A DNA stretch of 54,717 nt from Pseudomonadota bacterium (GCA_016927275.1 JAFGMW010000064.1:1-54717); one strand, 5' to 3'. Shown: positions 1 to 11,861, counted from the stretch's first letter. Program-made: numbers and translations. The notes: generated by a model not told the origin, from the sequence alone.

Positions 1-1842
1 GCTGTTCTGAATGAGTTTGCCGGTAGCCGTGTCAAACCGGGTGATAGCATTGTCAGTAGCGCCCGCAGGTCCCACTACATCGCCTGTTCCTGCAGCTGCC
101 CACTGCGGATTTGCGCCGGCGCCCTGCGTCTGGAGAAACTGTCCGCTGGCTCCGGGCACGAGCCTCACGATGCTCGTGCCGTTGTCGTAGAGGATGTCGC
201 CCTGGTTCGAGGCGCCGAGCAAAAAGGTCGTCGCTACAAGGTCATCAAAAGTCCCGTCTCCCGCTGTCACAAGGCCTATATTAACGCCGTCCATCGTCCC
301 GCCGTTTATGTCTGCGGTGGTCACTGTGCCGAGATCGGCCACCGTTCTGCCGGCGTTGGTCCAGTTGCTGCCCATGCTGAACGAGCTGCCGTCGTCAGCC
401 GATATCGAGTCCAGGGCGATGTCGCCGACGTTGATGATATTGAAATCCCCGACGTTGAGGTCCCCCGTCATGGCAACGGTGCCGTCGGCCTTGAAATCCC
501 CCGAGCCCACGTCGGACCAGCCGAGCTGGCCGCCGGCGTTCGTAGTGAGCGCCTGGCCGGCAGTGCCGTCGGCGGCGGGCAGGATCAGAGACCAGCTCGC
601 CCCCACGTCTGCCGCGGACATGAGCGTGGTGGTGAAGGAGTCGCCCGCATCGGCGTCGTGCAGGACGACCCTGCCCGCATAGGCCACCGTGCCCTGGCCT
701 ATCGTCACGTCGCCTCCCTGGACGGCCGTGTCGTTCTGCGAGACGAGGTCGGTGAATGTACCTGTAGATGCGGTGGTTGCGCCTATCGCCGAGTTGTTCA
801 CCGTGCCGCCGCTGATCGTGAGTGCGTCCGCGATGTAGGCGTCGAGTATTGCGGTGCCGTTCCAGACGCCGCTGGCGACCGTGCCCAGGGCGGTGATGTT
901 GCCCTGGACCGCCGCAGGCAGCGCGCTTGCGATCGACGGCACGCCGGCGCCGCTGGTCGCGAGCACCCCGTTGGCCGCGGTCGAAAGCCCTGAGACGGTG
1001 CTTCCCGCCGCCGCATAGTAGGCGAGCTCGTTGATGAGCCCGGGGTTCACTCCGCCGCCGCCTCCGCCGCCGATGTCGTTCCACGTCGTTCCGTCGTTGG
1101 AGTACTGCCACTTGACGGTCGCGTCGTCGAAGCGAAGGCCCGGGTTGTTCGCCGCGCCCTGGTTCGCGTAGATGACGTTGGTTGCCGCAGCCCCGCTGCC
1201 GATGGTGAAGTTGTTGTTCGCGTTGGAGAAGGCGGTGATCTTGTCGGGGGTGACCGATCCCGCGGCGATCTGTGCGCCGCCCACCGCGCCTGTCGCTATG
1301 GCCGCGTTGTCCACGGCGCCGGGCGCGATCTGGCTGGAGATGATCTGGTCGGTCTGCAGGAAGAAGTCGATCGGCTCGTATCCCCTGAAATACTGCGTGT
1401 TCAACGAATAGACCGAGGCGGTTATGCGGATGGGCGGGGTGAGCTCGGCGAAGCCGGAGACGCCGTCGTTGAACCACGACTTGAGGGTGAGGACGCTCGT
1501 GGTGTTGAAGATCGCTGGGTCGATGACCTGCATGCCCGGTATGGATGCGCTGCCGAGCAGGACCTGGAATATCCCCTCGTCCACAGGCACCGCGACCGAG
1601 CCGGTCGGCTCGGCGCCGTCCAAGCTCGTGCCGTCGTTGCTCCAGAGAGAGGTCCCCGCGCCGTCGACGATGACGAGCTTGAACCTGCCCGTGCCCTCGA
1701 AGGGGCGGTCGTCGACGAAGACGCTGCCCTGGTAGGTGAGCACCGGATCCACCGGCGTGGGCGGGGCGGCCCACAGGGTCGCGCTCCAGGCGAGCGCTGC
1801 GGCGAGAATCGATGCGGCAACGGCCGATGTCGTCCTCTTCAT
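1..1842 (-). CDS. Secreted phage-tail-fibre-like adhesin (3' truncated by window edge, at least 614 aa)
   Basis: Hand-translated frame, absent from the ORF track. GGAGG SD, then MKRTTSAVAASILAAALAWSATLWA signal peptide and a LTYQGSV...GIFQVLLG N-terminal domain. Fibre-type motifs: IAPGAVDNAAIATGAVGGAQIAAGSVTPDKI, GGTVNNSAIGATTASTGTF, LPAADGTAGQALTTNAGGQLGW, GDVVGPAGATDNAITRFDTATGKLIQNS. Open through base 1. Confidence 0.8.
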   Translation of the reverse strand, partial: MKRTTSAVAASILAAALAWSATLWAAPPTPVDPVLTYQGSVFVDDRPFEGTGRFKLVIVDGAGTSLWSNDGTSLDGAEPTGSVAVPVDEGIFQVLLGSASIPGMQVIDPAIFNTTSVLTLKSWFNDGVSGFAELTPPIRITASVYSLNTQYFRGYEPIDFFLQTDQIISSQIAPGAVDNAAIATGAVGGAQIAAGSVTPDKITAFSNANNNFTIGSGAAATNVIYANQGAANNPGLRFDDATVKWQYSNDGTTWNDIGGGGGGGVNPGLINELAYYAAAGSTVSGLSTAANGVLATSGAGVPSIASALPAAVQGNITALGTVASGVWNGTAILDAYIADALTISGGTVNNSAIGATTASTGTFTDLVSQNDTAVQGGDVTIGQGTVAYAGRVVLHDADAGDSFTTTLMSAADVGASWSLILPAADGTAGQALTTNAGGQLGWSDVGSGDFKADGTVAMTGDLNVGDFNIINVGDIALDSISADDGSSFSMGSNWTNAGRTVADLGTVTTADINGGTMDGVNIGLVTAGDGTFDDLVATTFLLGASNQGDILYDNGTSIVRLVPGASGQFLQTQGAGANPQWAAAGTGDVVGPAGATDNAITRFDTATGKLIQNS

Positions 1843-1853
1843 GACCACCTCCC

Positions 1854-1870
1854 GGCCCCGCGCGGGGGCC
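1854..1870. other. GC-rich intergenic hairpin
   Basis: GGCCCC-gcgcg-GGGGCC perfect 6-bp stem between the lipoprotein stop and the fibre-gene SD. No U-tract. Confidence 0.4.
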
Positions 1871-1875
1871 AAGTA

Positions 1876-2148
1876 TCACTTCACCTCGTATCTCCCGTCG
1901 GCGCTCGACTGCAGGGTCTCAGCGGTCGGGCTGCCGAGCGTCTGTATAATCTTGTAACGCTCTCCGCCCCTGGAGTAGCTGAAGCCGGAGAGCACGCCAG
2001 CGGAGCGGGCGTCGGAGGGGGGCGGCTCGGGGATGACGATCTCATCGGTCACGGTGATGTCTCCGCCGCACGCGGTGATTGCGGCCAGCGCCGCCAGGGC
2101 TACGACTGCGAAGACGCCCCTCGCTGTTTTCGTGTCCATGCGCCGCAT
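1876..2148 (-). CDS. Small lipoprotein (90 aa), unknown function
   Basis: AGGGAGGG SD before MRRMDTK; hydrophobic stretch ending in lipobox-like ITA-C-GG. This is the 3' part of track ORF 1876..2538. Confidence 0.7.
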   Translation of the reverse strand: MRRMDTKTARGVFAVVALAALAAITACGGDITVTDEIVIPEPPPSDARSAGVLSGFSYSRGGERYKIIQTLGSPTAETLQSSADGRYEVK

Positions 2149-2162
2149 GATGCCCTCCCTCA

Positions 2163-3548
2163 TCAGAGGCCCCCGCCTGCCATCGTGAGCACCTCTGCCC
2201 TGCGCGCCTCGCTCGGCGCCGACACGCTGTCCTCGCCGACGGCGAGCTTGCGGAACTGCGCCTGGCCTCCGGTGCGGGCGAGCTCGCCCTCGATCGCGGC
2301 AGCGAGCGCCTCTGCGCGGCGGCCGGCCAGTCCCCTGTTGTACTGCTTCGTTCCCGTTGTATCGGTCCAGCCGCGGACCTCCACGGCGACCGTGCCTTTG
2401 CCCGCGGCTATGTGCTCCGCTATGGCCTCGACCACGCCGCGGTCCTCGGGGGAGATCGTAGCGTCGTCGAAGTCGAAGTAGACCTCGCAGAGGAACGTGT
2501 AGCGGCCGGGCTCGCCGTCGGCGGCGAGCCTCGTGCACGACGGCGCCTCGTCCAGCGGCCCGATCCTCGCGTGCTCCCTGGGAGCGGGCCTATGCGTGTA
2601 CGCAAGATTCACGAATCCGGCGTAGCGGGGCATGCCGCCGCCGTGGACGAGGCCGACGGAGCCGCCGCCGCCCACGGAGAGGCCGTTTTCGAACTTGTGC
2701 CTTGCGCCCAGCCGCGCCTCTGCGGGCGAGGTGGAGCGGGAGCCGTAGAAGTCGCCGGTCGCGGTCTGGGTCTCGATCTCGGCTATGATCGAGGTGGACT
2801 TTGCCACGCGCAGGTTCGCCGCAGCTGCGATCTTGAGCACGTCGCGGAACGAGAAGTCGCCGATCTGCACCTTCTCCCTGGTCTGGAAGGCCACGTTGGC
2901 CGCCATGGTGAGCCTGTCAGCGGGCTTTATCTCCACGATGAGGCGGGCCTCGCCGGTGACCCCGCTGTCGCCGAGGAAGTGCGACTCCCTGCCCGTGGGC
3001 GCGGTCACCGACGGCATGAAGGCGATGCCGACGGGGTACTCGTCGAGATCGAGGATCCTGAACTTGGCGAAGAGGTTCAAGTCCCCCGCGGAGCCGTACT
3101 CGCGGCCCGAGTAGCGGCCCGCAGCGTCCGACCAGGTGTATCTGTAGGTGTAGAAGAGGGGGATGTCGAAGCCCAGCGAAAACCAGTCCACGAATCCCAG
3201 CGCGCCGTAGAACCACTGGAAGAGGGGCCCGTCCACCCCGTCCTTCGTGGCGACGCTAGTGGTCCTGCCGGTGCGGCGGACGATCTCGGTCACCATGTCG
3301 ATGTTGAGCGGCTCGTCGTAGTAGAGGAGCGAGGTGCCCAGCGTGAAGCCGAGCTGCGGCAGGCTGCGAGACTCCTGCACGAAGAAGTAGTTTCCGAGGT
3401 CAGCGTTGGGACGGACCCTGAGGAAATTGAAGCGGTCGGCCGCCTGCGCCGGCTTCGCGGTGATAAGGCAGAGGGCGAGGATGCAAACGGACAAGGCAGG
3501 CAGGGCGCGCAGCGCCGAAGACCACGGCATCGCAACTGGGTTTTTCAT
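2163..3548 (-). CDS. OmpA-family outer membrane protein (predicted beta-rich N domain plus OmpA-like peptidoglycan-binding C domain)
   Basis: Signal peptide (…PAQA-ADRF), amphipathic beta strands, C-terminal VYFDFDDATI…VRGWTDTTG…YNRGLAGRRAEA. Start could be about 3530. Confidence 0.8.
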   Translation of the reverse strand: MKNPVAMPWSSALRALPALSVCILALCLITAKPAQAADRFNFLRVRPNADLGNYFFVQESRSLPQLGFTLGTSLLYYDEPLNIDMVTEIVRRTGRTTSVATKDGVDGPLFQWFYGALGFVDWFSLGFDIPLFYTYRYTWSDAAGRYSGREYGSAGDLNLFAKFRILDLDEYPVGIAFMPSVTAPTGRESHFLGDSGVTGEARLIVEIKPADRLTMAANVAFQTREKVQIGDFSFRDVLKIAAAANLRVAKSTSIIAEIETQTATGDFYGSRSTSPAEARLGARHKFENGLSVGGGGSVGLVHGGGMPRYAGFVNLAYTHRPAPREHARIGPLDEAPSCTRLAADGEPGRYTFLCEVYFDFDDATISPEDRGVVEAIAEHIAAGKGTVAVEVRGWTDTTGTKQYNRGLAGRRAEALAAAIEGELARTGGQAQFRKLAVGEDSVSAPSEARRAEVLTMAGGGL

Positions 3549-3589
3549 ATGAGCCCGCGCCCCCCTTCACGAACTCTAAGCTCCTACTT

Positions 3590-5233
3590 CTACTGCCTTG
3601 CGCGTATCTCGTCAATCGCCGAGTTCGCCTTTGCGACCACCTGTTCGCTCTTTCCCATGGAGGCCAGCTCGAGCAGCCTGCGGCCGCTATCGGGGCCCCC
3701 GTATCTCCTCAGTATGTCTATGCCCGCAATGACGATCGAGTCGTCCGCCTCGGACATTATGAGCTGCGAGGCCAGCGAGGCCGCCTCGGCGGGGGAGACC
3801 TCACCCATCCTTCTCAGCGCCTCGACCCGCGCCTGCCTGTCCTCGGAGGCGAGGGCCACGGTCTTGAGGAGCCGCAAGACCGGCTCCGCGAAGCGCTCGC
3901 CCTGGAAGCGGCCCACGACCGAGACGATCTCGCGCGCCAGCGCCGCGTCCGGCTCCCTCTGCATGAGTGAGAGCAGGGTGTCGAATGCGCGGTCGCCGCC
4001 CACGCGGCCGATCGAGCGGATCGCGTGGATCTTCTTCAGAGGCTTCATGACCCCGTAGCGCTGCGCGAGCAGGTCGACCGCCGCGTCGCCGCCGCGGGCG
4101 ATGAGCGGCTGCATCATCTGCGGCAGGTGCTCGGCCTGCGTGGACTCGAATACGCGCGCAAAGAGCGCTACCTCGGCGGCGTGGGCGTCGGCATAGCCCC
4201 TGGCGAGCTCGTCGACCGCTGCCTGGTGGACCGCGCGCGGATGGCTTGCGTCCCGAAGGACCGCTATGAGGATGTCGCGCGCCAGCCGCGAGTTGTCCGC
4301 GCCCAGCCCCGCCACGGCCGCGACCCTCATCTCAGGGGCGCTCTCCGGGGCCGAGAGGATGCGGCCGAACTCTAGGGCCGTCTCCTCGGTACCCTTTCTG
4401 CCGAGCGCGCGGGCGGCCTCAGTGCGCAGCTGCGGGTCGGACTCAAGCACGTCGTACAGCATGGGGATCGCGCCGTCGGCTTCGATGGCGCCGAGCGCGG
4501 CCACCGCCTCGCGCCTGGCCTCGGGGTCGCCGGAAGATCTCAGCACCGAGCCGATCTCGGAGAGCGCATCCTCGCCGCCGAGCGCGCCCAGCACCGAGAC
4601 GGCGCCCCTCTTGTAGCCCGCGCCTGCATCTGCGCCCCGCGCGTCCTGTGCGGCGCTTGCCCTCACCGCCTCGCGCGCTGCGCGGTCCTTGAGGGCCTCG
4701 CCCCTTGCGAGAGCGTCCCTGGCCTCGTCTGAGAGCTTCGCGTCGCCGCCCACCGCGTGCCGATAGAGCGCCTGCGCTGCCCTCTCGCCCTTGAACGAGG
4801 CGAGCGCGCGGACGAGCGCCTGCCGCTGCTGCGCGGGCCTCGCCTCATCCAGCATTCGAATTACGGTATCCAGCGCGATCGGCCCCATGCGGGAGAGGTC
4901 GGAGCCGAGATCCGCGATCTCATCGCGGTCCTTTGCGGGATCGAGCGACAGAATCACGCCGAGGGTCGTGTCAACGGCGCCGCGAACGACGCGCTCCTCA
5001 TCGTGGGCTTCCTGCGCCGCTTCCTCCTCGAGCGCCTCCTCTTCACGGGAGTCGAGCCTCGCCTCCAGGTCCGAGACGAAGCGGCGTGCCGCGGCGGAGT
5101 AGGATCTCCGGGCCTGCAAGGTCGATTCGGCGCCGGCCGGCGAGCCTGCCTCGGCCCCTGTCCCGGGCGCGCCTGTGCAGGATGTGAGGACGAGTGCGAG
5201 CGACGCAAACAGCGTGACCAACTGGGAGTTCAT
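3590..5233 (-). CDS. HEAT/PBS-lyase-repeat lipoprotein
   Basis: Lipobox LVLTS-C; repeated R.EAV.ALG.I / LR.EAARALG helical-hairpin units. Confidence 0.75.
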   Translation of the reverse strand: MNSQLVTLFASLALVLTSCTGAPGTGAEAGSPAGAESTLQARRSYSAAARRFVSDLEARLDSREEEALEEEAAQEAHDEERVVRGAVDTTLGVILSLDPAKDRDEIADLGSDLSRMGPIALDTVIRMLDEARPAQQRQALVRALASFKGERAAQALYRHAVGGDAKLSDEARDALARGEALKDRAAREAVRASAAQDARGADAGAGYKRGAVSVLGALGGEDALSEIGSVLRSSGDPEARREAVAALGAIEADGAIPMLYDVLESDPQLRTEAARALGRKGTEETALEFGRILSAPESAPEMRVAAVAGLGADNSRLARDILIAVLRDASHPRAVHQAAVDELARGYADAHAAEVALFARVFESTQAEHLPQMMQPLIARGGDAAVDLLAQRYGVMKPLKKIHAIRSIGRVGGDRAFDTLLSLMQREPDAALAREIVSVVGRFQGERFAEPVLRLLKTVALASEDRQARVEALRRMGEVSPAEAASLASQLIMSEADDSIVIAGIDILRRYGGPDSGRRLLELASMGKSEQVVAKANSAIDEIRARQ

Positions 5234-5428
5234 GACCGCCCCCTGGTGTTATATATATGAAATGAGCTTATCATCATCGCCCGGAACATGGAAGAACAGT
5301 CTGAAAAGATGCCACATGTTCAAGGCCTTCTCAATTGCTTTGATAACTATGTAAAAAAATAATGATAATAAATAGGGGCCGCAACGGACCCTGCGGCAGC
5401 AGGGGTATCAAAAGCGACACGTCCTTAT

Positions 5429-5902
5429 TCAGCGGTGGTGCGCGGTCGAATCGGGCTCGTCGTACAGCTGCTCGTAGGTGCGGCCCCTGCCGGCGGGGCG
5501 GCGTTCTTCCTTGGGCGGCCCCTCTCCGGGGCACCTTTTGCACAGAAGCCTCTTCCTCATGAGGCGGAGGAGGAAGGCGGCGAGCTTGAAGCCGATGTAG
5601 GCGGCGAGCAGGGCCAAAAAGACGTCCCTCGGGTCGGACTTTATGTTGGCCGAGGCCCTGTCTACGGCCGCCGCGACCCCGCCTTTCAGCCCCGCCACGA
5701 ACTCGTCGAAGGGGGCGTCGAGGGCGTAGGCCCTGCCGAAGGCGTAGATCACGCGGAAGTTGTAGAGCATGCCGCGCCACGCGCGCGCGCCTATCTCCCC
5801 GGCGAACATCATGGAGAAGATCGCGGCGAGCAGGGCGAACTCGGAGAATATCTTCTCCGCCGCGAACACGACGGACTTCACGGACAACCTCATCATCTTC
5901 AT
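5429..5902 (-). CDS. Hypothetical membrane protein
   Basis: AGGGAGGG SD before MKMMRLS; two hydrophobic segments; 10 nt downstream of the RND stop. Confidence 0.6.
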   Translation of the reverse strand: MKMMRLSVKSVVFAAEKIFSEFALLAAIFSMMFAGEIGARAWRGMLYNFRVIYAFGRAYALDAPFDEFVAGLKGGVAAAVDRASANIKSDPRDVFLALLAAYIGFKLAAFLLRLMRKRLLCKRCPGEGPPKEERRPAGRGRTYEQLYDEPDSTAHHR

Positions 5903-5912
5903 CGATCCCTCC

Positions 5913-8900
5913 CTAGTCCTCTGCCTGCAGTTCCCCTGTGCCCGCTGCGCGACGGGCACGGCGCGCCCTCACCCATGCGTAAGCGGCACAGGACCATCTC
6001 CAGCCGGCCCTGCCCCAGTCTCGCATCTGCCTTGCGGCGAGAGCGACGTCGGCCCCGGACAGTCCCCTCTCGGCGAGCCCCTGGACCACCACGTATATCA
6101 CCGGCACGATGCCGAGGGTGAGCACGGTCGAGGCGATCACCCCGCCGAACACCGCGGTGCCCAGCGAGTGGCGCGAGGCGGCGCCGGCGCCCGCGGCGAG
6201 CACCAGCGGTATGAAGCCGAAGATCGCGGAGAGCGCGGTCATGAGGATGGGCCTCAGCCTCACGCGTGCCGCCTCGACCGCCGCCTCCACGATCGTGGCG
6301 CCCGCATCGCGCTTGTCCTTGGCGAACTCGATGAGCAGGATCGAGTTCTTGCTGGCGAGCCCGACCAGCATCACCAGGCCTATCTGGCAGTATATGTCGT
6401 TGTACAGGCCGCGCCAGAACTGGGCCCCCAGCGCCCCGAGTATGGCCAGCGGCACCGCCATCATGATCACCAGCGGCAGGGCCCAGCTCTCGTACTGGGC
6501 CGCGAGGAAGAGGAAGACGAAGGCGATGGAGAGCGCGAAGATGAGAGGGGCCAGCCCCGCGGACTTTATCTCCTGCAGCGCCGTTCCTGTCCACTCGAAG
6601 CCGTAGCCGGCCGGGAGGATCCTCTTTGCCAGCCGCTCCATCGCCGCTATCGCCTCGCCGGAGCTGTGTCCGGGCGCCGGCGCCCCGTTGAGCTCGACGC
6701 TGCGGTAGAGGTTGTAGCGCGTGATCGTCTGCGGCCCGGTGATCCTCCTCACGCCGACCAGCGCCGACAGGGGCACGAGATCGCCCGAGGCGGAGCGGAC
6801 GTAGAGCCTGGAGATGTCGCCCACGTCGGCGCGGAAGCGGTCCTTGGCCTGGACGAAGACGCGGTAGACCCTGCCGAACTTGTTGAAGTCGTTCACGTAG
6901 AACGAGCCGAGGTAGGCCTGCAGGGTGTTGAATATGTCGGTGATCGCGATGCCCAGGGTTTTGGCCTTGGTGCGGTCGAGGTCGATGTAGAGCTGCGGGT
7001 AGTCGACCTTGAAGGTCTTGGAGAGGTGCGCGAGCGCCGGGTCATGCCTGGACGCTCCGATCATCTTCTTCGAAAGGTCGTCGAGGGCGCGGATGTCGCC
7101 GCCGCCCCTGTCCTGCAGCTCGAACTGGAAGCCGCCGGTGGTGGAGAGCCCCTCTATCGGGGGCGGGTTGAATGTGAAGGCGAGCATCTCCTCGAGGCCG
7201 AAGAGGTCCATCTGGACCCTCTCCATGACCGCCTCGACGCTCGATCCGGCGCCCCTGCGCTCAGACCACTCCTTGAGCGTCACGATGAAGGTCGTGGCGC
7301 TCGAGTCGAGGGCGCCGTTTATCATGTTGTAGCCCGCGATCGTGAGGACGTCCTCGACCTCTCCCCGGGACCTGACCATCCCCTCTATCCTGTCGCTCGT
7401 CGCCATGGAGCGCGAAAGGGACATGCCCTCCGGCCCCTGCGCTATGATGTAGAAGTAGCCCATGTCCTCGTCGGGCACGAAGGCGGTCGGCACATGCCCG
7501 GCAAGGAACCATGTGATGCCCATCAGCGCGAGGAAGAGGACCAGCACCGCCTTCCACCTGCCGACCAGGCGGCCGACCAGCGTCTGGTACAGGCCGCTGG
7601 AGAGGCCGAACCCCTTGTTGAAGCCGGTGAAGAGAGGGCCCTGCTTCGCGGGCTTGGGCCTGAGCACGATCGCGCAGAGGGCGGGCGCGATGGTGAGCGC
7701 GCAGACCGTGGAGATGCCGACCGCGAACGCGATGGTGAGCGCGAACTGCCTGTAGAGCTGCCCCGATATGCCGGGCATGAAGGCCACCGGCACGAAGACC
7801 GCGAAGAGCACGAGGGTCGTGGCGATGACCGGCCCCACCACCTCGGCCATGCCCTTCATGGCCGCGTCGAGCCCGCGGAGACCCTCCTGCTCGATGAGCC
7901 GCGAGGTGTTCTCCACGACGACGATCGCGTCGTCGACCACCGTGCCTATGGCGAGCACGAGCCCGAAGAGGGTGAGGGTGTTGATCGAGAAGCCGAACGC
8001 CATCATGACGCCGAAGGTGCCGATGAGCGAGACCGGTATGGTGATCGAGGGGATCAGCGTCGACCGCCAGTCCTGAAGGAACACGTAGATCACCGCGATC
8101 ACCAGCAGCACCGCGAGCACGAGCGTGATCACGACCTCCTTGATCGACTCCTTCACGAACATCGTGGTGTCGTAGGGGATCGAGTAGGCGAGCCCCTCGG
8201 GGAAGCGCGCGGAGAGCTCCTCCAGCGTCTGCCTCGCCTGGCGCGATATCGCCACGGCGTTGGCGCCGGCGAGCTGGAACACGCCTATGCCCGCGCAGCT
8301 CTTGCCGTTGAGCTCGAACGACCATTGGTAGTTCTCCGCACCGAGCTCGACGTCGGCCACGTCGCGGATCCTCACGACCGATCCGTCCGCTGCGGTCCGC
8401 ACGACGATGTCCCTGAACTCCTCCACATCCTCGAGGCGGCCCTTCGTGGTTATCGTGTACTGGAACGCGACGCTGTCGGAGCTGGGAGGCTGGCCCAGCC
8501 CGCCCGCGGCCACCTGCACGTTCTGGTCCTGGATCGCCCCCACCACGTCCTGCACCGCGAGGCCCATCCCGGTGAGCCGGTCCGGGTCGAGCCAGAAGCG
8601 CATGGAGTAGGCCCGCTCGCCGAATATGATCACGTCGCCCACGCCCGGGATTCGCTTGAGCACGTCCACCACGTTGATGGAGGCGTAGTTGGAGAGGAAC
8701 AGCTCGTCGTAGCGGTTGTCGGTCGCAAAGAGGGTGGCGATGAGGATGAAGTTGCTGGACTTCTTCTGCGTGGTGACGCCGTACTTGCGCACGTCCTCCG
8801 GGACGCGGGGGAGCGCGATGTTGACGCGGTTCTGCACGTCCACCGCGGCGATGTCCTGGTCGTAGCCCACCTCGAACGTGACCGTGATGTTCGAGGAGCC

Positions 8901-9158
8901 GTCGTTGCCGCTGATCGAGGACATGTAGAGCATGCCGGGGGTGCCGTTGATCTGCTGCTCCAGCGGCTGGGTCACGCTCTTCTCCACGACCTCGGCGCTG
9001 GCGCCCGTGTAGGTGGCCGAGACCTGCACGACCGGCGGCGTGATCTGGGGGAACTGGGCGACCGGCAGGAGCGGTATGCACACCACGCCGGCCAGCACGA
9101 TCACCAGCGAGATCACCGTGGAGAACTTGGGCCTCTTTATGAAAAAATCCACGAACAT
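5913..9158 (-). CDS. RND efflux permease subunit (HAE1/AcrB-like)
   Basis: Start reset to MFVDFFIKRPKFSTVIS. Motifs include LPVAQFPQITPP, GTVVDDAIVVVEN, KNSILLIEFA and RLRPILMT. Confidence 0.95.
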   Translation of the reverse strand: MFVDFFIKRPKFSTVISLVIVLAGVVCIPLLPVAQFPQITPPVVQVSATYTGASAEVVEKSVTQPLEQQINGTPGMLYMSSISGNDGSSNITVTFEVGYDQDIAAVDVQNRVNIALPRVPEDVRKYGVTTQKKSSNFILIATLFATDNRYDELFLSNYASINVVDVLKRIPGVGDVIIFGERAYSMRFWLDPDRLTGMGLAVQDVVGAIQDQNVQVAAGGLGQPPSSDSVAFQYTITTKGRLEDVEEFRDIVVRTAADGSVVRIRDVADVELGAENYQWSFELNGKSCAGIGVFQLAGANAVAISRQARQTLEELSARFPEGLAYSIPYDTTMFVKESIKEVVITLVLAVLLVIAVIYVFLQDWRSTLIPSITIPVSLIGTFGVMMAFGFSINTLTLFGLVLAIGTVVDDAIVVVENTSRLIEQEGLRGLDAAMKGMAEVVGPVIATTLVLFAVFVPVAFMPGISGQLYRQFALTIAFAVGISTVCALTIAPALCAIVLRPKPAKQGPLFTGFNKGFGLSSGLYQTLVGRLVGRWKAVLVLFLALMGITWFLAGHVPTAFVPDEDMGYFYIIAQGPEGMSLSRSMATSDRIEGMVRSRGEVEDVLTIAGYNMINGALDSSATTFIVTLKEWSERRGAGSSVEAVMERVQMDLFGLEEMLAFTFNPPPIEGLSTTGGFQFELQDRGGGDIRALDDLSKKMIGASRHDPALAHLSKTFKVDYPQLYIDLDRTKAKTLGIAITDIFNTLQAYLGSFYVNDFNKFGRVYRVFVQAKDRFRADVGDISRLYVRSASGDLVPLSALVGVRRITGPQTITRYNLYRSVELNGAPAPGHSSGEAIAAMERLAKRILPAGYGFEWTGTALQEIKSAGLAPLIFALSIAFVFLFLAAQYESWALPLVIMMAVPLAILGALGAQFWRGLYNDIYCQIGLVMLVGLASKNSILLIEFAKDKRDAGATIVEAAVEAARVRLRPILMTALSAIFGFIPLVLAAGAGAASRHSLGTAVFGGVIASTVLTLGIVPVIYVVVQGLAERGLSGADVALAARQMRDWGRAGWRWSCAAYAWVRARRARRAAGTGELQAED

Positions 9159-9214
9159 TCGATTCACCTGTCTGTCATTGCGAGGCCATGAAATGGCCGA
9201 TGACGCTCTCGGCG

Positions 9215-10399
9215 TCATCTCCCCAGTATCGCCCTGTGGACGATCGCCTGCATGGTCTCCCCTGCCGCGGCGCTCTTCGCGGTCACGGTGTCGCCCGGCT
9301 TCACCAGCTGCAGCCCCTCGATTATCACCTCTTCGCCGGGCGAGAGGGCGCCGGTCACCGCCCGCATGCCGTCGTATTTCGCGCCGCTTGAGACGTAGAC
9401 CCTCTTGGCCACGCTGCCCGCCTCGAGCGCCATGACGTACTGGCCGATCTGGTCGGCGGCGAGCGCCTTCTCGGGGATGAGCAGCGCCTCCTCGGATTCG
9501 CTCAGGAAGAGGCGGGCGTTCACGTACACGCCCGGCAGCAGCGTCTTCTCCGGGTTGGGGACCGTGGCGCGCATGGCCACGGTGCTCGTGCCCGCATCGA
9601 CCTGGTTGTCCACGAACTCGAGGGTCCCCATGTGGGGGCACTGCTCCCCGTCGGCGAACGATATGCCGACCGAAAGCTCCGAGCGCGCCATATGCTCGAC
9701 GATCCTGTGGGACTCCTCGTCGCTCGGGCTGAAGTAGACGTAGATGGGGTCGAGCAGCACGATGGTGGCGAGCTTCGTGGCCTCGCCCTTTCCCACGAGG
9801 TTGCCCACGTTCACGAGCGTGCGCCCCAACCTGCCGTCGAAGGGGGCGTAGACCCGGCAGTAGCCGAGGTTGAGGCTCGCCTGCTCGGCGGCGCCGGCGC
9901 TCGACTCGACGCGGGCCGCGGCCTCCTGCATGGAGGTGACCAGGTTGTCGAAGTTCTCCCTGGAGACGTAGTCCTTCTCAGAGAGGCCCCGGTACCGCTC
10001 GACCTGCTCCTTGGCGAAGGCGAGCTCCGCCTCGTCGCGGGCGAGCTGCCCCTTCGCCTCGGCCAGCGCCGCCTCGTAGGGCCTGGGGTCTATCACGTAG
10101 AGGAGGTCCCCCTCCTTCACGTCGTCGCCCTCCACGAAATTCCGCTCAACGAGAAACCCCTCGACCCTCGCTCTTATGTCCACGGTCATCTTCGCGGCGG
10201 TGGTGCCCACGTAGTCGATGTATATCGGCACGCTCTTTTTCACGACCGGCGCGACCGTGACCGTGGCCCGGCCCATGATCATGAGCTGCTCCTTATAGTG
10301 CATGTACGCGAGCAGTGCGAAGAGGAGGATCGCGCCGAAGATCAGCCTGCGCCTGGTGAGCCACCTCCCGCCGAGCTCGTACCTACCGATTCTCACCAT
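9215..10399 (-). CDS. RND periplasmic adaptor (membrane fusion protein)
   Basis: N-terminal TM; VDIRARVEGFL, LYVIDPRPYEA, APFDGRLG, GNLVGKG. Confidence 0.92.
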   Translation of the reverse strand: MVRIGRYELGGRWLTRRRLIFGAILLFALLAYMHYKEQLMIMGRATVTVAPVVKKSVPIYIDYVGTTAAKMTVDIRARVEGFLVERNFVEGDDVKEGDLLYVIDPRPYEAALAEAKGQLARDEAELAFAKEQVERYRGLSEKDYVSRENFDNLVTSMQEAAARVESSAGAAEQASLNLGYCRVYAPFDGRLGRTLVNVGNLVGKGEATKLATIVLLDPIYVYFSPSDEESHRIVEHMARSELSVGISFADGEQCPHMGTLEFVDNQVDAGTSTVAMRATVPNPEKTLLPGVYVNARLFLSESEEALLIPEKALAADQIGQYVMALEAGSVAKRVYVSSGAKYDGMRAVTGALSPGEEVIIEGLQLVKPGDTVTAKSAAAGETMQAIVHRAILGR

Positions 10400-11861
10400 A
10401 GGTCGTTTCCCTTTCCCCCTCCGCCGCGCCGGACGGCTCCGGGATCCTCTCGCCCACCGCGCGCACGAGGTCGGCGTAGGAGGTGTAGATCGCCGACTTC
10501 GAGTCGATGAGCTGCGCGCGCGCGTCGGCGAGAGTCGACTGCGCGTTGAGGAGCTCGACGATGTCCGCCGCGCCCTCCCTGTAGCGCGCCGACGATGCGT
10601 CGAACGACTCGCTCGCTGAGGCCATGAGGGCGCGGCTGGCCGAGAGGCTCTCGACCGCGGTCACATAGTTCTGGTACGCGTCCCAGACCTCCTTCACCAC
10701 CGTATCGTTTGCGAGCTTGAGCTGCGCCTTTGCCGCCTCCAGGTCGTAGCGGGCCTCGCGGAGCGCGTTCTCCATGTCGAAGCCGTGAAATATCGGGATC
10801 TCGAGCCTGAGCCCGCCGTAGGCGGTGGCCTCCTCCACGCTCCTGGACCTGAACCAGCCGAGGGTCCCTGTGCCCGTGAGCTTGGGGAAGGGCAGCGAGC
10901 GCGCCGCGCGCATCTCGGACTCCCTCTGCCTCACCAGCGCCTGGGCCGCGCCGATGTCCGGCCTCGCCTCGCCCGCATCCGCGATCAGCGAGTCCACGTT
11001 CGTGCCGAGCTTTCGCACCGGCGGGTCGCCGAGCTCCTCGCCCACCGAGAGGGGGACGTTTGCGGGCCAGCCCACGACCGTCGCGAGCGCGCCCCTGGAT
11101 ATCTCCTTCGCACCCTTCGCGGAGGCGAGATCGAGCTTCACACGGGCCTCGCGCGCGCGGGCCTGCAGCACGTCGGAGACGGTGCTCGCGCCCGCCCGCC
11201 TCCGCGCCTCGGTGGCCGCGAGCGTCGTGGCCGCCTCCCTGAGGTCCTGCTCCGCGGCCTTCACGCGCGCTGCGTCGGCCAGGTGAGTGTAGTATGCCTT
11301 GGGCACGTCGCGGAGCACGTCCTGTATCGCCTGGTTGTGGGACCAGTTCGCGGCGGCGAGCGCCTCGCGGGCGGCGGCCGCCTTTGCGCTGCGGCCCCCG
11401 AAGTCGAGCAGCAGGTACGAAAGCCCCACCCCCATCTGCACGTACGACCTGTCGCTGGTGCCGAGCTGCTGGATCTTGCCCGCGGTCGCCTCGACCCCCC
11501 CGTCGATCGTGGGGTAGTAGGGCGACCTGGCCCTGGCCCAGCCCGCTGCGCGCGCCTTTGCCTGCGCCCAGGCGATTCTCGTGGAGTCGTTGCTGAGAAG
11601 CGCTGCGTCTATGAGGTCGGCGAGGGTGAGCGCCTCTCCGCCCTGCGGCGCAGGCTCCAGCGGGGGCTGCATCTCCCTTTCGATCCTCCGCTCCATCGCC
11701 GAATCGATCGCCGGGGCCGATGCCACCTGAACTCCGGGCGCTTGCGATGCGTGCCTTGCGGGGTTGAGCTCAGGGACCGGCCTCGGACATCCGCAGAGGA
11801 GCGCTGCCGCGGCCGATGCGATGAGGGGTGCGGAATATTTTCCAGAAAGGGGTATGCGCAC
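10383..11861 (-). CDS. TolC-family outer membrane efflux lipoprotein
   Basis: GTG start, lipobox LLCG-C, two OEP-like helical repeats, RYREGAADIVELLNAQ C-terminal motif; first gene of the efflux operon. Confidence 0.88.
   Translation of the reverse strand: MRIPLSGKYSAPLIASAAAALLCGCPRPVPELNPARHASQAPGVQVASAPAIDSAMERRIEREMQPPLEPAPQGGEALTLADLIDAALLSNDSTRIAWAQAKARAAGWARARSPYYPTIDGGVEATAGKIQQLGTSDRSYVQMGVGLSYLLLDFGGRSAKAAAAREALAAANWSHNQAIQDVLRDVPKAYYTHLADAARVKAAEQDLREAATTLAATEARRRAGASTVSDVLQARAREARVKLDLASAKGAKEISRGALATVVGWPANVPLSVGEELGDPPVRKLGTNVDSLIADAGEARPDIGAAQALVRQRESEMRAARSLPFPKLTGTGTLGWFRSRSVEEATAYGGLRLEIPIFHGFDMENALREARYDLEAAKAQLKLANDTVVKEVWDAYQNYVTAVESLSASRALMASASESFDASSARYREGAADIVELLNAQSTLADARAQLIDSKSAIYTSYADLVRAVGERIPEPSGAAEGERETTYGENR

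What the first reader, a model, noticed from the sequence alone, without database searches (positions are those of the whole stretch)
1..5233. Candidate fibre-display operon: HEAT lipoprotein, OmpA-type barrel, small lipoprotein, fibre
Seen: four co-oriented genes with 14-41 bp gaps, all with export signals (lipobox, SpI signal, lipobox, SpI signal), preceded by an AT-rich intergenic region at about 5240-5380. The fibre N-terminus has no autotransporter barrel. Inference: the OmpA-family protein could be the outer-membrane channel or peptidoglycan-tethered anchor, with the lipoproteins as scaffold and adaptor. That would be a dedicated export/anchoring route for a phage-like fibre that I cannot match to a named secretion system. 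The missing C-terminus could still carry a trimeric-autotransporter or T9SS signal.
Basis: inference. Interest (0 to 1): 0.7.

Follow-up and report, generated by a model that had tools for sequence, protein, structure and literature searches.

The report
Four-gene surface fibre display cassette
A rare but strictly conserved four-gene operon in uncultured sediment bacteria pairs a long adhesin-like fibre, distantly related to the prey-grabbing fibres of Bdellovibrio, with a tiny lipoprotein, a wall-tethered outer-membrane barrel and a HEAT-repeat lipoprotein that probably mount the fibre on the cell surface.

Summary
Four co-oriented minus-strand genes with 41, 14 and 33 bp gaps each carry an export signal. 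They follow a 39% GC intergenic region and a terminator-like hairpin.

The set is conserved. Every visible orthologue of the OmpA-type gene (11 contig lineages, different flanks) sits in the order HEAT lipoprotein, barrel-OmpA, ~85-aa lipoprotein, fibre.

The tightest pair is the small lipoprotein plus the fibre, adjacent in all 15 subfamily loci. Three loci lack the barrel gene next to them.

The fibre is not a phage gene. Its N-domain belongs to a large cellular family (189 GTDB hits, none in IMG/VR). Of 33 family members scanned, 28 weakly match NCBIfam Bdello_MAT_N. Orthologue tips vary (C1q/TNF-like, gp53-like), and none has a YadA anchor or T9SS CTD.

The barrel belongs to a large TraB-like barrel-OmpA superfamily. 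Its only solved relative is FapF, an amyloid secretion pore. Some members are fused to adhesin-type N-terminal domains.

Best reading: a dedicated module that mounts a MAT-like fibre on the outer membrane. The lipoprotein acts as adaptor, the barrel-OmpA protein as peptidoglycan-tethered base or conduit, and the HEAT protein as scaffold. The roles are inferred. No interaction, expression or localisation data could be obtained.

The parts
3590..5233 (-). Gene A: HEAT-repeat lipoprotein, 547 aa. Lipobox LTS|C at residues 16-19, an acidic low-complexity linker to about residue 100, then HEAT/PBS-lyase-type repeats to the C-terminus.
   Evidence: Pfam HEAT_2 E 8e-23 and HEAT_PBS. Orthologues at 34-47% identity lie directly upstream of B in L002, L006, L007/8, L009/L169, L010 and L171, and directly upstream of C in L011.
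2163..3548 (-). Gene B: outer-membrane barrel plus OmpA-type peptidoglycan-binding protein, 461 aa, with an SPI signal at residues 1-36.
   Evidence: NCBIfam TraB model E 8.8e-21 over residues 23-314 (73.5 bits, cutoff 700). Pfam OmpA E 3e-9. Only about 10 orthologous clusters exist among 5.8 billion proteins.
2574..3440 (-). B barrel domain (residues ~37-325), with a strongly conserved mature N-terminal segment and an invariant P184-T185-G186 motif.
   Evidence: Alignment A1 invariants. phmmer finds 1526 representative clusters. The family profile hits FapF (5o68) at E 4.2e-5 across the PTG region. Relatives hit PF13557. AF2 gives about 14-15 strands but at pLDDT below 50.
2184..2486 (-). B OmpA_C domain (residues ~355-455), preceded by a linker with two invariant Cys (C338, C354). 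Invariant D396 and R411 lie 15 residues apart, the positions of the peptidoglycan-contacting Asp/Arg of OmpA-like domains (my own knowledge of the family).
   Evidence: Profile hits to many solved OmpA_C/Pal/YfiB domains, best E 1.8e-12. pLDDT 75-91 in the AF2 model. Invariant columns.
1876..2148 (-). Gene C: small lipoprotein, 90 aa (mature ~64 aa). Lipobox ITA|C, then the conserved C-terminal motif PPSD..SAGVLSG.GYATGGEHYK.VQSLG.P....Q.S..G.Y.VK.
   Evidence: No Pfam, NCBIfam or PHROG family. 35 clusters in 5.8 billion proteins. Directly upstream of the fibre in all 15 subfamily loci. The mature part is modelled as disordered.
1..1842 (-). Gene D: secreted fibre, N-terminal 614 aa; the C-terminus lies beyond the window. 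Signal peptide at residues 1-25.
   Evidence: Orthologues P0002 (874 aa, 68% identity), P0003 (1027 aa), P0004 (891 aa) and the L169 fibre (1397 aa). Window bases 1-87 coincide with a 203x-depth repeat contig, which explains the assembly break.
1393..1767 (-). Fibre base domain (residues ~26-150; YQG...FKLVIVD...WSNDGTS...WF.DG), a distant homologue of the Bdellovibrio MAT N-domain.
   Evidence: 189 relatives in GTDB species genomes and 119 in metagenome contigs. 28 of 33 aligned family members hit NCBIfam NF053851 Bdello_MAT_N, best E 4.5e-9, all below the 60-bit cutoff. The window copy itself has no hit at E<=0.1.
1057..1392 (-). Subfamily-specific 'neck' (residues ~151-262; DQITSSQIAPGAV repeats, NNFTIGSG, NPGLRFD..KWQYSNDGTTWNDIG, Gly run).
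   Evidence: A neck HMM finds it only in loci that also carry an upstream small lipoprotein (L089-L091, L011, L095, L076), and in none of about 150 other N-domain loci.
1..1056 (-). Fibre shaft (residues 263-614) made of mosaic repeat motifs (AYYAAAG..GL.TA.NGVL, GQ.LTT...G.L.W, NWTNAGRT.ADLG.VTTADINGGT.DG, GPAGATDNAITRFD..TGKLIQNS).
   Evidence: Internal duplication is seen as secondary HSPs. Distant hits share these motifs and often end in Peptidase_S74. Only residues 536-589 match a few pelagiphage proteins.
5234..5428 (-). AT-rich upstream intergenic region. A terminator-like hairpin of the preceding gene lies at 5378-5397, then about 140 bp at 38.6% GC that presumably holds the cassette promoter.
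   Evidence: No sigma-70 consensus match was found on the minus strand.

Best explanation
The four genes form one dedicated envelope module that mounts a long, probably trimeric, adhesin-type fibre on the outer membrane.

The fibre (D) is a cellular relative of the Bdellovibrio 'mosaic adhesive trimer' (MAT) fibres. It has a Sec signal, a conserved beta-rich base domain, a mosaic shaft and, in its orthologues, an exchangeable binding tip.

After Sec export, the proposed steps (all inferred) are:
- The fibre base and its subfamily-specific neck are held by the tiny lipoprotein C. C is lipid-anchored and seems unstructured alone, so it probably folds onto its partner.
- The C-fibre complex docks on B. 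B is a TraB/FapF-class barrel, about 12-stranded by homology, whose OmpA domain ties the assembly to peptidoglycan.
- The HEAT-repeat lipoprotein A acts as a periplasmic scaffold or holdase during assembly.

B is chiefly the wall-tethered base, as TraB is for TraA. It may in addition let the unfolded chains cross the outer membrane.

Shown: gene order, export signals, conservation of the cassette, domain homologies, tip variability.
Inferred: every physical contact, surface exposure, trimerisation and the direction of transport.
For: (1) Synteny. All orthologues of B with visible neighbours sit as A-B-C-fibre or B-C-fibre. There are 11 contig lineages including the window, at 42-65% identity, with unrelated flanks. 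Gaps are mostly 6-41 bp, and there is no internal terminator.

(2) C and the fibre are adjacent in 15 of 15 subfamily loci. Two more distant fibres (L095, L076) that carry the neck region also have an upstream small lipoprotein.

(3) All four products carry Sec or lipoprotein signals.

(4) The fibre base domain is homologous to the MAT N-domain (28 of 33 family members hit NF053851). [quoted passage not shown]

(5) Orthologue tips differ, as in MATs. L169 has a C1q/TNF-like tip (PF00386, E 9e-4) and P0004 a gp53-like C tip (E 9.5e-4); the tips of P0002 and P0003 are unrelated to these.

(6) The best curated match for the B barrel is TraB. TraB is a barrel plus OmpA partner that forms 1:1 complexes with the polymorphic surface receptor TraA and anchors it to peptidoglycan (PMC12045341).

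(7) Members of the same barrel-OmpA superfamily are fused in cis to N-terminal FG-GAP, PKD, Ig and 'choice-of-anchor' domains typical of surface proteins.

(8) The OmpA domain keeps the conserved Asp/Arg pair.
Against: - No interaction, localisation or expression data.
- B is absent next to C-fibre in L011 (A-C-fibre), L096 and the L004/L172 lineage.
- None of about 150 loci of the wider MAT_N fibre family has A, B or C nearby. Such fibres clearly can exist without this cassette.
- The window's own N-domain does not reach any threshold against the MAT_N model.
- AF2 models of B's barrel and of C are of low confidence.
- All carriers are uncultured MAGs.
Confidence: 0.55

Rival explanations
1. 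B is primarily a FapF-like secretion pore. A trimer of plugged 12-stranded barrels passes the three unfolded fibre chains across the outer membrane. The chains trimerise outside and stay attached through C. The OmpA domain and the HEAT lipoprotein only position and gate the pore.
For: - The only significant solved relative of the barrel family is FapF (E 4.2e-5). The alignment includes the PTG motif, which is invariant in B.
- FapF secretes unfolded amyloid subunits and is trimeric. COG4313-type 12-stranded barrels resemble post-cleavage autotransporter barrels (PMC5557850 and PMC4493636).
- The fibres have only a Sec signal and no recognisable outer-membrane translocation tag.
- Passenger-barrel-OmpA fusions exist in the superfamily.
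Against: - The FapF match is short (~85 residues, 26 bits).
- TraB, the closer relative, is not needed for TraA to reach the outer membrane.
- L011 and the whole wider fibre family lack B.
- No coiled-coil or plug region was identified.
- No barrel model is good enough to inspect the lumen.
Confidence: 0.2
2. Two functionally separate pairs are merely co-inherited. A and B are a general envelope-integrity or peptidoglycan-tethering pair. C and the fibre are the real unit, exported and anchored by other means.
For: - C-fibre occurs without B in three loci and with A alone in L011.
- Barrel-OmpA proteins are very common, with 1526 representative clusters.
- HEAT-repeat lipoproteins are generic.
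Against: - The B orthologue group is very rare (about 10 clusters) and was never seen away from C.
- The A orthologues were likewise found only in the cassette.
- Gene order and tight spacing are kept while the flanks change.
Confidence: 0.12
3. The fibre is not surface-displayed. The module builds a periplasmic or intra-envelope structure, for example a tether between outer membrane and wall, or a stored fibre deployed only on contact, like the Bdellovibrio vesicle cargo.
For: - There is no outer-membrane translocation signal.
- B's OmpA domain and both lipoproteins face the periplasm.
- Bdellovibrio MATs were found in a vesicular compartment (PMC10769870).
Against: - MATs were shown to be surface-localised.
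- Variable C1q/TNF-like and gp53-like tips are typical of externally facing binding domains.
- Fibres of 870-1400 aa would be far longer than a periplasm is wide (inference).
Confidence: 0.08
4. The fibre is a remnant of a prophage or tailocin, and its neighbours are irrelevant.
For: - Shaft motifs and some relatives' C-termini (Peptidase_S74, gp53-like C) are shared with phage tail fibres.
- A ~40-aa motif matches pelagiphage proteins.
Against: - It has a Sec signal peptide.
- The N-domain is absent from IMG/VR, and there is no PHROG hit.
- There are no phage genes nearby. The window context is chromosomal: RND efflux, G6PD, Ppx, OPT.
- The cassette is conserved in different chromosomal sites.
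Confidence: 0.02

Closest known systems
Bdellovibrio bacteriovorus MAT (mosaic adhesive trimer) fibres (Caulton et al. 2024, PMC10769870)
   Same: A signal peptide, then a conserved ~130-aa beta-rich N-domain, then a long mosaic shaft and an exchangeable tip. The tips include TNF/C1q-like folds, and S74 in relatives. The N-domain family is detectably homologous (28 of 33 members hit NCBIfam Bdello_MAT_N). Multiple and tandem paralogues occur in the wider family.
   Different: - The hits are far below the curated cutoff, and the window copy gives none.
- The carriers are unclassified Pseudomonadota MAGs and, for the wider family, mostly Verrucomicrobiota. They are not known predators.
- This subfamily has an extra neck region and a dedicated three-gene partner set. 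No such set has been reported for MATs, whose surface receptor is unknown.
TraA/TraB outer-membrane exchange system of Myxococcus (PMC12045341, PMC3325183)
   Same: An operon pairs a polymorphic surface protein with a signal peptide + barrel + OmpA protein. TraB is the best curated match for B's whole barrel (E 8.8e-21). TraB anchors its partner to peptidoglycan in a 1:1 complex. A lipid anchor is part of the system (MYXO-CTERM on TraA; lipoprotein C here).
   Different: - The score is 73 bits against a cutoff of 700.
- B has no TSP3 repeats.
- The partner is a MAT-like fibre, not a PA14/Cys-rich TraA.
- The lipid anchor sits on a separate small protein.
- There is an additional HEAT lipoprotein.
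FapF and the Fap functional-amyloid secretion system of Pseudomonas (PMC5557850)
   Same: A dedicated outer-membrane barrel encoded with the fibre it serves. The barrel family profile hits FapF as its only significant PDB relative, and the PTG motif is shared. A trimeric pore would match a trimeric cargo.
   Different: - The homology is weak and partial.
- FapF has an N-terminal coiled coil and no OmpA domain.
- The cargo is amyloid subunits.
- No FapA-E counterparts are present.
Curli CsgG-CsgF-CsgB
   Same: A functional analogy only: a small accessory protein (CsgF) couples a surface fibre to its outer-membrane channel. This is the role proposed for C.
   Different: There is no sequence relationship. 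CsgG is itself the lipoprotein channel (a 36-stranded nonamer).
Acinetobacter AtaA-TpgA (trimeric autotransporter plus OmpA-type partner)
   Same: A long trimeric fibre is co-encoded with a peptidoglycan-binding OmpA_C protein that stabilises its anchoring. B's OmpA_C domain weakly hits the TpgA model (27 bits).
   Different: AtaA carries its own YadA-type barrel. The orthologous fibres here have none. TpgA has no barrel.

Membership tests
MAT (mosaic adhesive trimer) fibre family | N-terminal Sec signal peptide followed directly by the conserved ~130-aa beta-rich N-domain (NCBIfam NF053851 Bdello_MAT_N, cutoff 60 bits) | tested here: inconclusive
   The signal peptide is present. The window N-domain gives no hit at E<=0.1. 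However, 28 of 33 members of the same aligned domain family hit NF053851 (best E 4.5e-9), including subfamily members P0004 (E 0.002) and P0005 (E 0.017). All are below the cutoff. This indicates distant homology, not membership of the curated Bdellovibrio subfamily.
MAT (mosaic adhesive trimer) fibre family | Variable C-terminal tip (S74 chaperone-protease or non-S74 adhesive fold) on a conserved base | tested here: met
   Orthologues share residues 1-~600 at 52-68% identity but end in unrelated tips. L169 has a C1q/TNF-like tip and P0004 a gp53-like C tip; P0002, P0003 and P0005 have other tips. The window's own tip is missing.
MAT (mosaic adhesive trimer) fibre family | Trimeric fibre exposed on the cell surface | not testable with these tools
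   No multimer prediction or localisation data are available.
TraB (outer membrane exchange protein) | Full-length match to NF033763 at >=700 bits; barrel + TSP3 repeats + OmpA | tested here: not met
   The score is 73.5 bits, and only the barrel (residues 23-314) aligns. No TSP3 hit was found in Pfam. Ten other superfamily members also score only 76-202 bits.
TraB (outer membrane exchange protein) | Encoded with traA (PA14-like variable domain, Cys-rich stalk, MYXO-CTERM) | tested here: not met
   The neighbours are a HEAT lipoprotein, a small lipoprotein and a MAT-like fibre.
FapF / COG4313-type 12-stranded barrels | Sequence relationship to the barrel, including the PTG motif | tested here: met
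   The profile of 26 barrel-family members hits FapF chains 5o68/5o65/5o67 at E 4.2e-5 to 3.5e-4 across the PTGKE region. P184-T185-G186 is invariant in B orthologues. Relatives hit PF13557 at E 1e-7 to 5e-5.
FapF / COG4313-type 12-stranded barrels | 12 strands with an N-terminal plug; Fap operon partners (FapA-E) | tested here: inconclusive
   The AF2 barrel model is unreliable (pLDDT below 50, about 14-15 strand segments). No Fap partner families were found in the cassette.
Trimeric autotransporter adhesin | C-terminal YadA-type membrane anchor | tested here: not met
   No such Pfam or NCBIfam hit appears in the complete orthologues P0002, P0003, P0004 and the L169 fibre at E<=0.05-0.1. The window's own C-terminus is unavailable.
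T9SS cargo | C-terminal T9SS sorting domain | tested here: not met
   Same scans as for the YadA anchor: no CTD hit in the four complete orthologues.
Phage tail fibre | Membership of a phage protein family, or occurrence in phage genomes | tested here: not met
   No PHROG hit for four fibres. The N-domain is absent from IMG/VR. Only residues 536-589 match 7 of 50,697 phage records.
OmpA_C peptidoglycan-binding domain (PF00691) | Pfam match above the gathering score, with conserved Asp/Arg | tested here: met
   37.5 bits against a cutoff of 27.2. PDB profile hits reach E 1.8e-12. D396 and R411 are invariant.

The most novel reading that the evidence does not exclude
MAT-type trimeric fibres may be mounted by a so far unrecognised pathway. 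A small adaptor protein encoded next to the fibre captures the fibre's base. The adaptor would be a lipoprotein in this clade, and possibly the ~95-aa YLP-box proteins of Chloroflexi and the PamT-like secreted proteins of Verrucomicrobiota. In this clade, a trimeric TraB/FapF-class barrel with an OmpA tail would both thread the three unfolded chains through the outer membrane and tie the finished fibre to the wall. That would amount to a new 'trans-autotransporter' type of secretion and anchoring system. It would also name candidates for the unknown surface receptor of the Bdellovibrio MAT N-domain.
Probability: 0.15. Interest if true: 0.85.

Novelty: new variant of a known kind. Interest (0 to 1): 0.6.

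Why it matters
Long mosaic fibres with swappable tips let Bdellovibrio recognise prey. The paper that described them left two things open: how the invariant base domain is held on the cell, and how such fibres cross the outer membrane.

This work shows that the base domain is widespread well beyond predators. It has hundreds of relatives, mostly in Verrucomicrobiota. In one rare clade it is locked into an operon with three envelope proteins, which gives concrete, testable candidates for the anchor and the conduit.

The work also links the large, barely studied TraB-like barrel-OmpA superfamily to surface-protein anchoring in general. That superfamily includes fusions to FG-GAP, PKD and choice-of-anchor domains, and has a distant tie to FapF.

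If the module works as proposed, it is a compact four-gene kit for displaying exchangeable binding tips on a Gram-negative surface.

Tried and rejected
- **Recovering the missing fibre C-terminus.** The exact-protein contig look-up gave only a 7.7-kb Logan contig that also ends inside the fibre. Laying contigs showed that window bases 1-87 are a 203x repeat contig.
- **RNA evidence.** The one metatranscriptome from the same study gave only short fragments of 18-34 bases, which say nothing about co-transcription.
- **AF2 of B with 8 sequences.** The barrel came out at pLDDT below 50 and only the OmpA_C domain is reliable. No fold search was run on it.
- **AF2 of C with 35 sequences.** The mature part came out at pLDDT 45-55 with no fold. 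No fold search was run.
- **Sequence searches of five fibres and the N-domain profile against the PDB.** Nothing significant was found.
- **PHROGs for the fibres and C.** No hits.
- **GTDB scan for B orthologues.** None found.
- **IMG/VR scan for the N-domain.** None found.
- **Homology of C to the neighbour proteins of the wider fibre family.** hhalign against the Chloroflexi ~95-aa proteins gave 68% probability (E 4.8e-5), which is suggestive only. Against the Verrucomicrobial ~300-aa proteins there was no signal.
- **Direct comparison with Bdellovibrio MAT sequences.** This was not possible: the paper's supplements hold no sequences, so the link rests on the NCBIfam model.
- **Rejected ideas.** Prophage or tailocin origin; a trimeric autotransporter or T9SS explanation of export; B as a true TraB orthologue.
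- **Taxonomy.** It could not be fixed beyond 'unclassified Pseudomonadota MAG' labels on related proteins.

Full report
**Observation.**

The minus strand of window 1-5233 holds four consecutive ORFs.
- A, 5233..3590 (547 aa).
- B, 3548..2163 (461 aa).
- C, 2148..1876 (90 aa).
- D, 1842..1 (614 aa, open at the window end).

The gaps are 41, 14 and 33 bp, and each start is preceded by a G-rich Shine-Dalgarno-like motif. A and C start with lipoboxes (LTS|C and ITA|C). B and D start with classical signal peptides (AQA|AD and LWA|AP).

Region 5234-5378 is 38.6% GC against 67.7% for the cassette. It begins with a terminator-like hairpin (5397..5378) that closes the preceding 157-aa ORF. No terminator-like site lies inside the cassette.

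**Domain content.**

A is a HEAT-repeat protein (Pfam HEAT_2, E 8e-23). B has an OmpA domain at residues 357-419. C and D match no Pfam family.

In NCBIfam, residues 23-314 of B align with the whole barrel of the Myxococcus outer-membrane-exchange protein TraB. The E-value is 8.8e-21, but the score is 73.5 bits against a cutoff of 700.

**Is the cassette conserved?**

A search of 5.8 billion proteins found only about 10 orthologous clusters of B, at 42-65% identity. For every one whose neighbours could be fetched, the order is HEAT lipoprotein, B, an 80-104-aa lipoprotein, then a fibre.
- The fetched loci are L002, L006, L007/L008, L009/L169/L170, L010 and L171.
- A metagenome scan with the fibre N-domain added L094 (B-C-fibre), and L089, L092 and L093 (end of B, then C, then fibre).
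- The flanks differ each time: RND efflux here, aminotransferase and transketolase in L002 and L171, DUF481 in L006, a LysR regulator in L007, DNA polymerase III alpha in L009 and L169.

The four genes therefore travel as a unit. The gaps are short in most loci.

The C family has 35 clusters. C lies directly upstream of the fibre in all 15 subfamily loci seen. B is not always there.
- L011, a Pseudomonadota MAG, has A-C-fibre.
- L096 has no B in the 730 bases upstream.
- The L004/L172 lineage has fibre1, a 238-aa gene, C, then fibre2.

The core is thus C plus the fibre. A and B are usual but not universal companions.

**What is the fibre?**

Its orthologues are 874-1397 aa long. They share the first ~600 residues at 52-68% identity and then end in unrelated tips.
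- The L169 fibre has a C1q/TNF-like tip (PF00386, E 9e-4).
- P0004 has a gp53-like C tip (E 9.5e-4).
- P0002, P0003 and P0005 have other tips.
- None has a YadA anchor, a T9SS CTD or any other sorting domain.

Residues ~26-150 form a domain that is widespread in cellular genomes.
- It has 189 tblastn-confirmed relatives in GTDB species genomes. Most are in Verrucomicrobiota; others are in Sumerlaeota, Anaerolineae, Haliangiales and Hydrogenedentes. They are often tandem paralogues.
- It has 119 relatives in the metagenome collection.
- It has none in 2.9 million viral contigs.
- There are no PHROG hits.
- Only a ~40-residue shaft motif is shared with seven pelagiphage records.

When the 33 aligned N-domains were scanned one by one, 28 hit NCBIfam NF053851, the 'Bdello_MAT_N, mosaic adhesive trimer family' model. 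The best E-value was 4.5e-9, and all hits were below the 60-bit cutoff. The window copy itself is among the five without a hit.

The fibre is therefore a divergent cellular relative of the Bdellovibrio MAT fibres, not a phage gene. The MAT paper describes the same anatomy: a signal peptide, an invariant ~130-aa beta-rich domain, a trimeric shaft, and S74 or non-S74 tips that include TNF-like folds. [quoted passage not shown]

The cassette-linked subfamily has an extra 'neck' (residues ~151-262). A neck HMM finds it only in loci that also have an upstream small lipoprotein. These include the distant L095 and L076, whose lipoproteins are divergent.

**What is the barrel?**

An exhaustive phmmer search with residues 1-330 of B found 1526 representative clusters at E<=1e-3. 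Typical members are barrel + OmpA proteins of 410-640 aa, and several reach PF13557, Phenol_MetA_deg.

A set of 900-1190-aa proteins places FG-GAP, PKD, Ig-like or 'choice-of-anchor' domains in front of the same barrel-OmpA module. All ten members tested have TraB as their best NCBIfam hit, at 76-202 bits. TraB is thus simply the only curated representative of this superfamily, and B is not a TraB orthologue.

A profile of 26 barrels hits one solved protein significantly. This is FapF, the functional-amyloid secretion pore (E 4.2e-5). The alignment runs through the PTG motif, which is invariant in B (P184-T185-G186).

Published work gives three relevant facts.
- FapF is a trimer of plugged 12-stranded barrels that exports unfolded subunits.
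- Its nearest structure is the COG4313 channel Pput2725, a 12-stranded barrel that resembles post-cleavage autotransporter barrels (PMC5557850, PMC4493636).
- TraB forms 1:1 complexes with the lipid-anchored polymorphic receptor TraA and ties them to peptidoglycan, but it is not needed for TraA to reach the outer membrane (PMC12045341).

B's OmpA domain is well modelled (pLDDT 75-91). It keeps the invariant Asp/Arg pair (D396, R411).

**Mechanism.**

The best-supported reading is a dedicated mounting module for a MAT-like fibre. C is the lipid-anchored adaptor for the fibre base and neck. B is the wall-tethered outer-membrane base. A is a periplasmic scaffold or holdase.

Whether B also conducts the unfolded chains (FapF-like, or autotransporter-like in trans) cannot be decided. 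The cis fusions and the FapF link argue for a conduit. The TraB precedent, the loci without B, and the roughly 150 wider-family loci with none of A, B or C nearby argue that B is an accessory anchor.

C's mature part is modelled as disordered. That fits a peptide that folds on its partner, but it is weak evidence.

**Limits.**
- No multimer prediction, expression data or localisation data were available.
- The barrel model is unreliable.
- The window's own fibre tip is missing, because assemblies break in the fibre repeats.
- The homology to Bdellovibrio MATs rests on sub-threshold hits of relatives to a curated model.

**Novelty.**

I found no paper that describes this gene set. All of its parts belong to known kinds, so it is a new variant, not a new category. 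It bears directly on a question stated as open: what holds MAT-type fibres on the cell.

Noticed in passing
L012-L082 (22 Verrucomicrobiota loci, e.g. L060:11918-12892; L014:12577-13710): MAT_N-type fibres are often followed or preceded by a ~300-aa secreted protein. Its N-terminus carries repeated 'S.NY....D.GG...S..Y...S.GG' motifs, and its C-terminal part carries 'DNFGSYAGDG..D.WQVQYFG'. The N-terminal ~90 residues weakly hit the CPR pilus tip-pilin model PamT (E 1.5e-5, cutoff not met). CPR pam operons are reported to co-localise with a tail-fibre-like protein (bioRxiv 10.64898/2026.03.03.709456).
   Followed up: partly
L056:7601-7909 and 10194-10508; L073:11933-12238; L080:6775-7134; L084:4435-4779: In Anaerolineae and Thermoflexia, the fibres are flanked by ~95-aa secreted proteins ('..SGGg..a.a.g.sl..TLGQPvvG...GFW.G') that end in a YLPL(V/I)LR tail. 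The tail matches the NCBIfam YLP-box sorting motif at E 0.071. hhalign against the mature small lipoprotein C gives 68% probability, so these may be a lineage-specific version of the same adaptor.
   Followed up: partly
proteins P0181, P0193, P0197, P0198, P0208, P0216, P0273, P0276, P0297: Large proteins (900-3145 aa) fuse FG-GAP, PKD, Ig-like, TSP3 or choice-of-anchor domains to the N-terminal side of the same TraB-like barrel plus OmpA module. This is an autotransporter-like order with an added peptidoglycan anchor. It appears undescribed as a class.
   Followed up: partly
window 5913-11861 (minus strand): A complete RND efflux operon lies directly upstream on the same strand: OEP 11861..10383, HlyD-type adaptor 10399..9215, and an AcrB-type pump within 9641..5913. 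L011 also has an RND pump and an OEP gene next to its A-C-fibre set, but divergently oriented.
   Followed up: partly
window 5429-5902 (minus strand): A 157-aa ORF with hydrophobic segments and no Pfam family lies between the efflux pump and the cassette. It is followed by the terminator-like hairpin, and it is not conserved in other cassette loci.
   Followed up: partly
window 1-87; also the contig ends of L001, L006, L009, L010, L091 and L171: Assemblies repeatedly break inside the fibre gene. Window bases 1-87, which encode GPAGATDNAITRFDTATGKLIQNS, match a 271-base contig at 203x depth. This motif is shared by many fibre genes in the community. Fibre tips will be systematically under-assembled in short-read metagenomes.
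   Followed up: partly
L003:3-2301 (same sample as the window) and L172:895-3606: Tandem fibre genes exist. P0005 is a short (445 aa) paralogue with the same base domain but a different C-terminal half, lying directly after another fibre gene. L172 has fibre1, a 238-aa secreted protein, C, then fibre2.
   Followed up: no
L012:9938-12811: A Verrucomicrobial member joins the MAT_N-like base to a large Kelch beta-propeller region (Pfam Kelch families, E 1.5e-111). The base domain is therefore used to mount non-fibrous heads as well.
   Followed up: no
window 2487-2573 (B residues 326-354): The linker between the barrel and the OmpA domain has two invariant cysteines (C338, C354) and no TSP3 repeat. 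It is probably a periplasmic disulfide in place of the calcium-binding linker of TraB.
   Followed up: no
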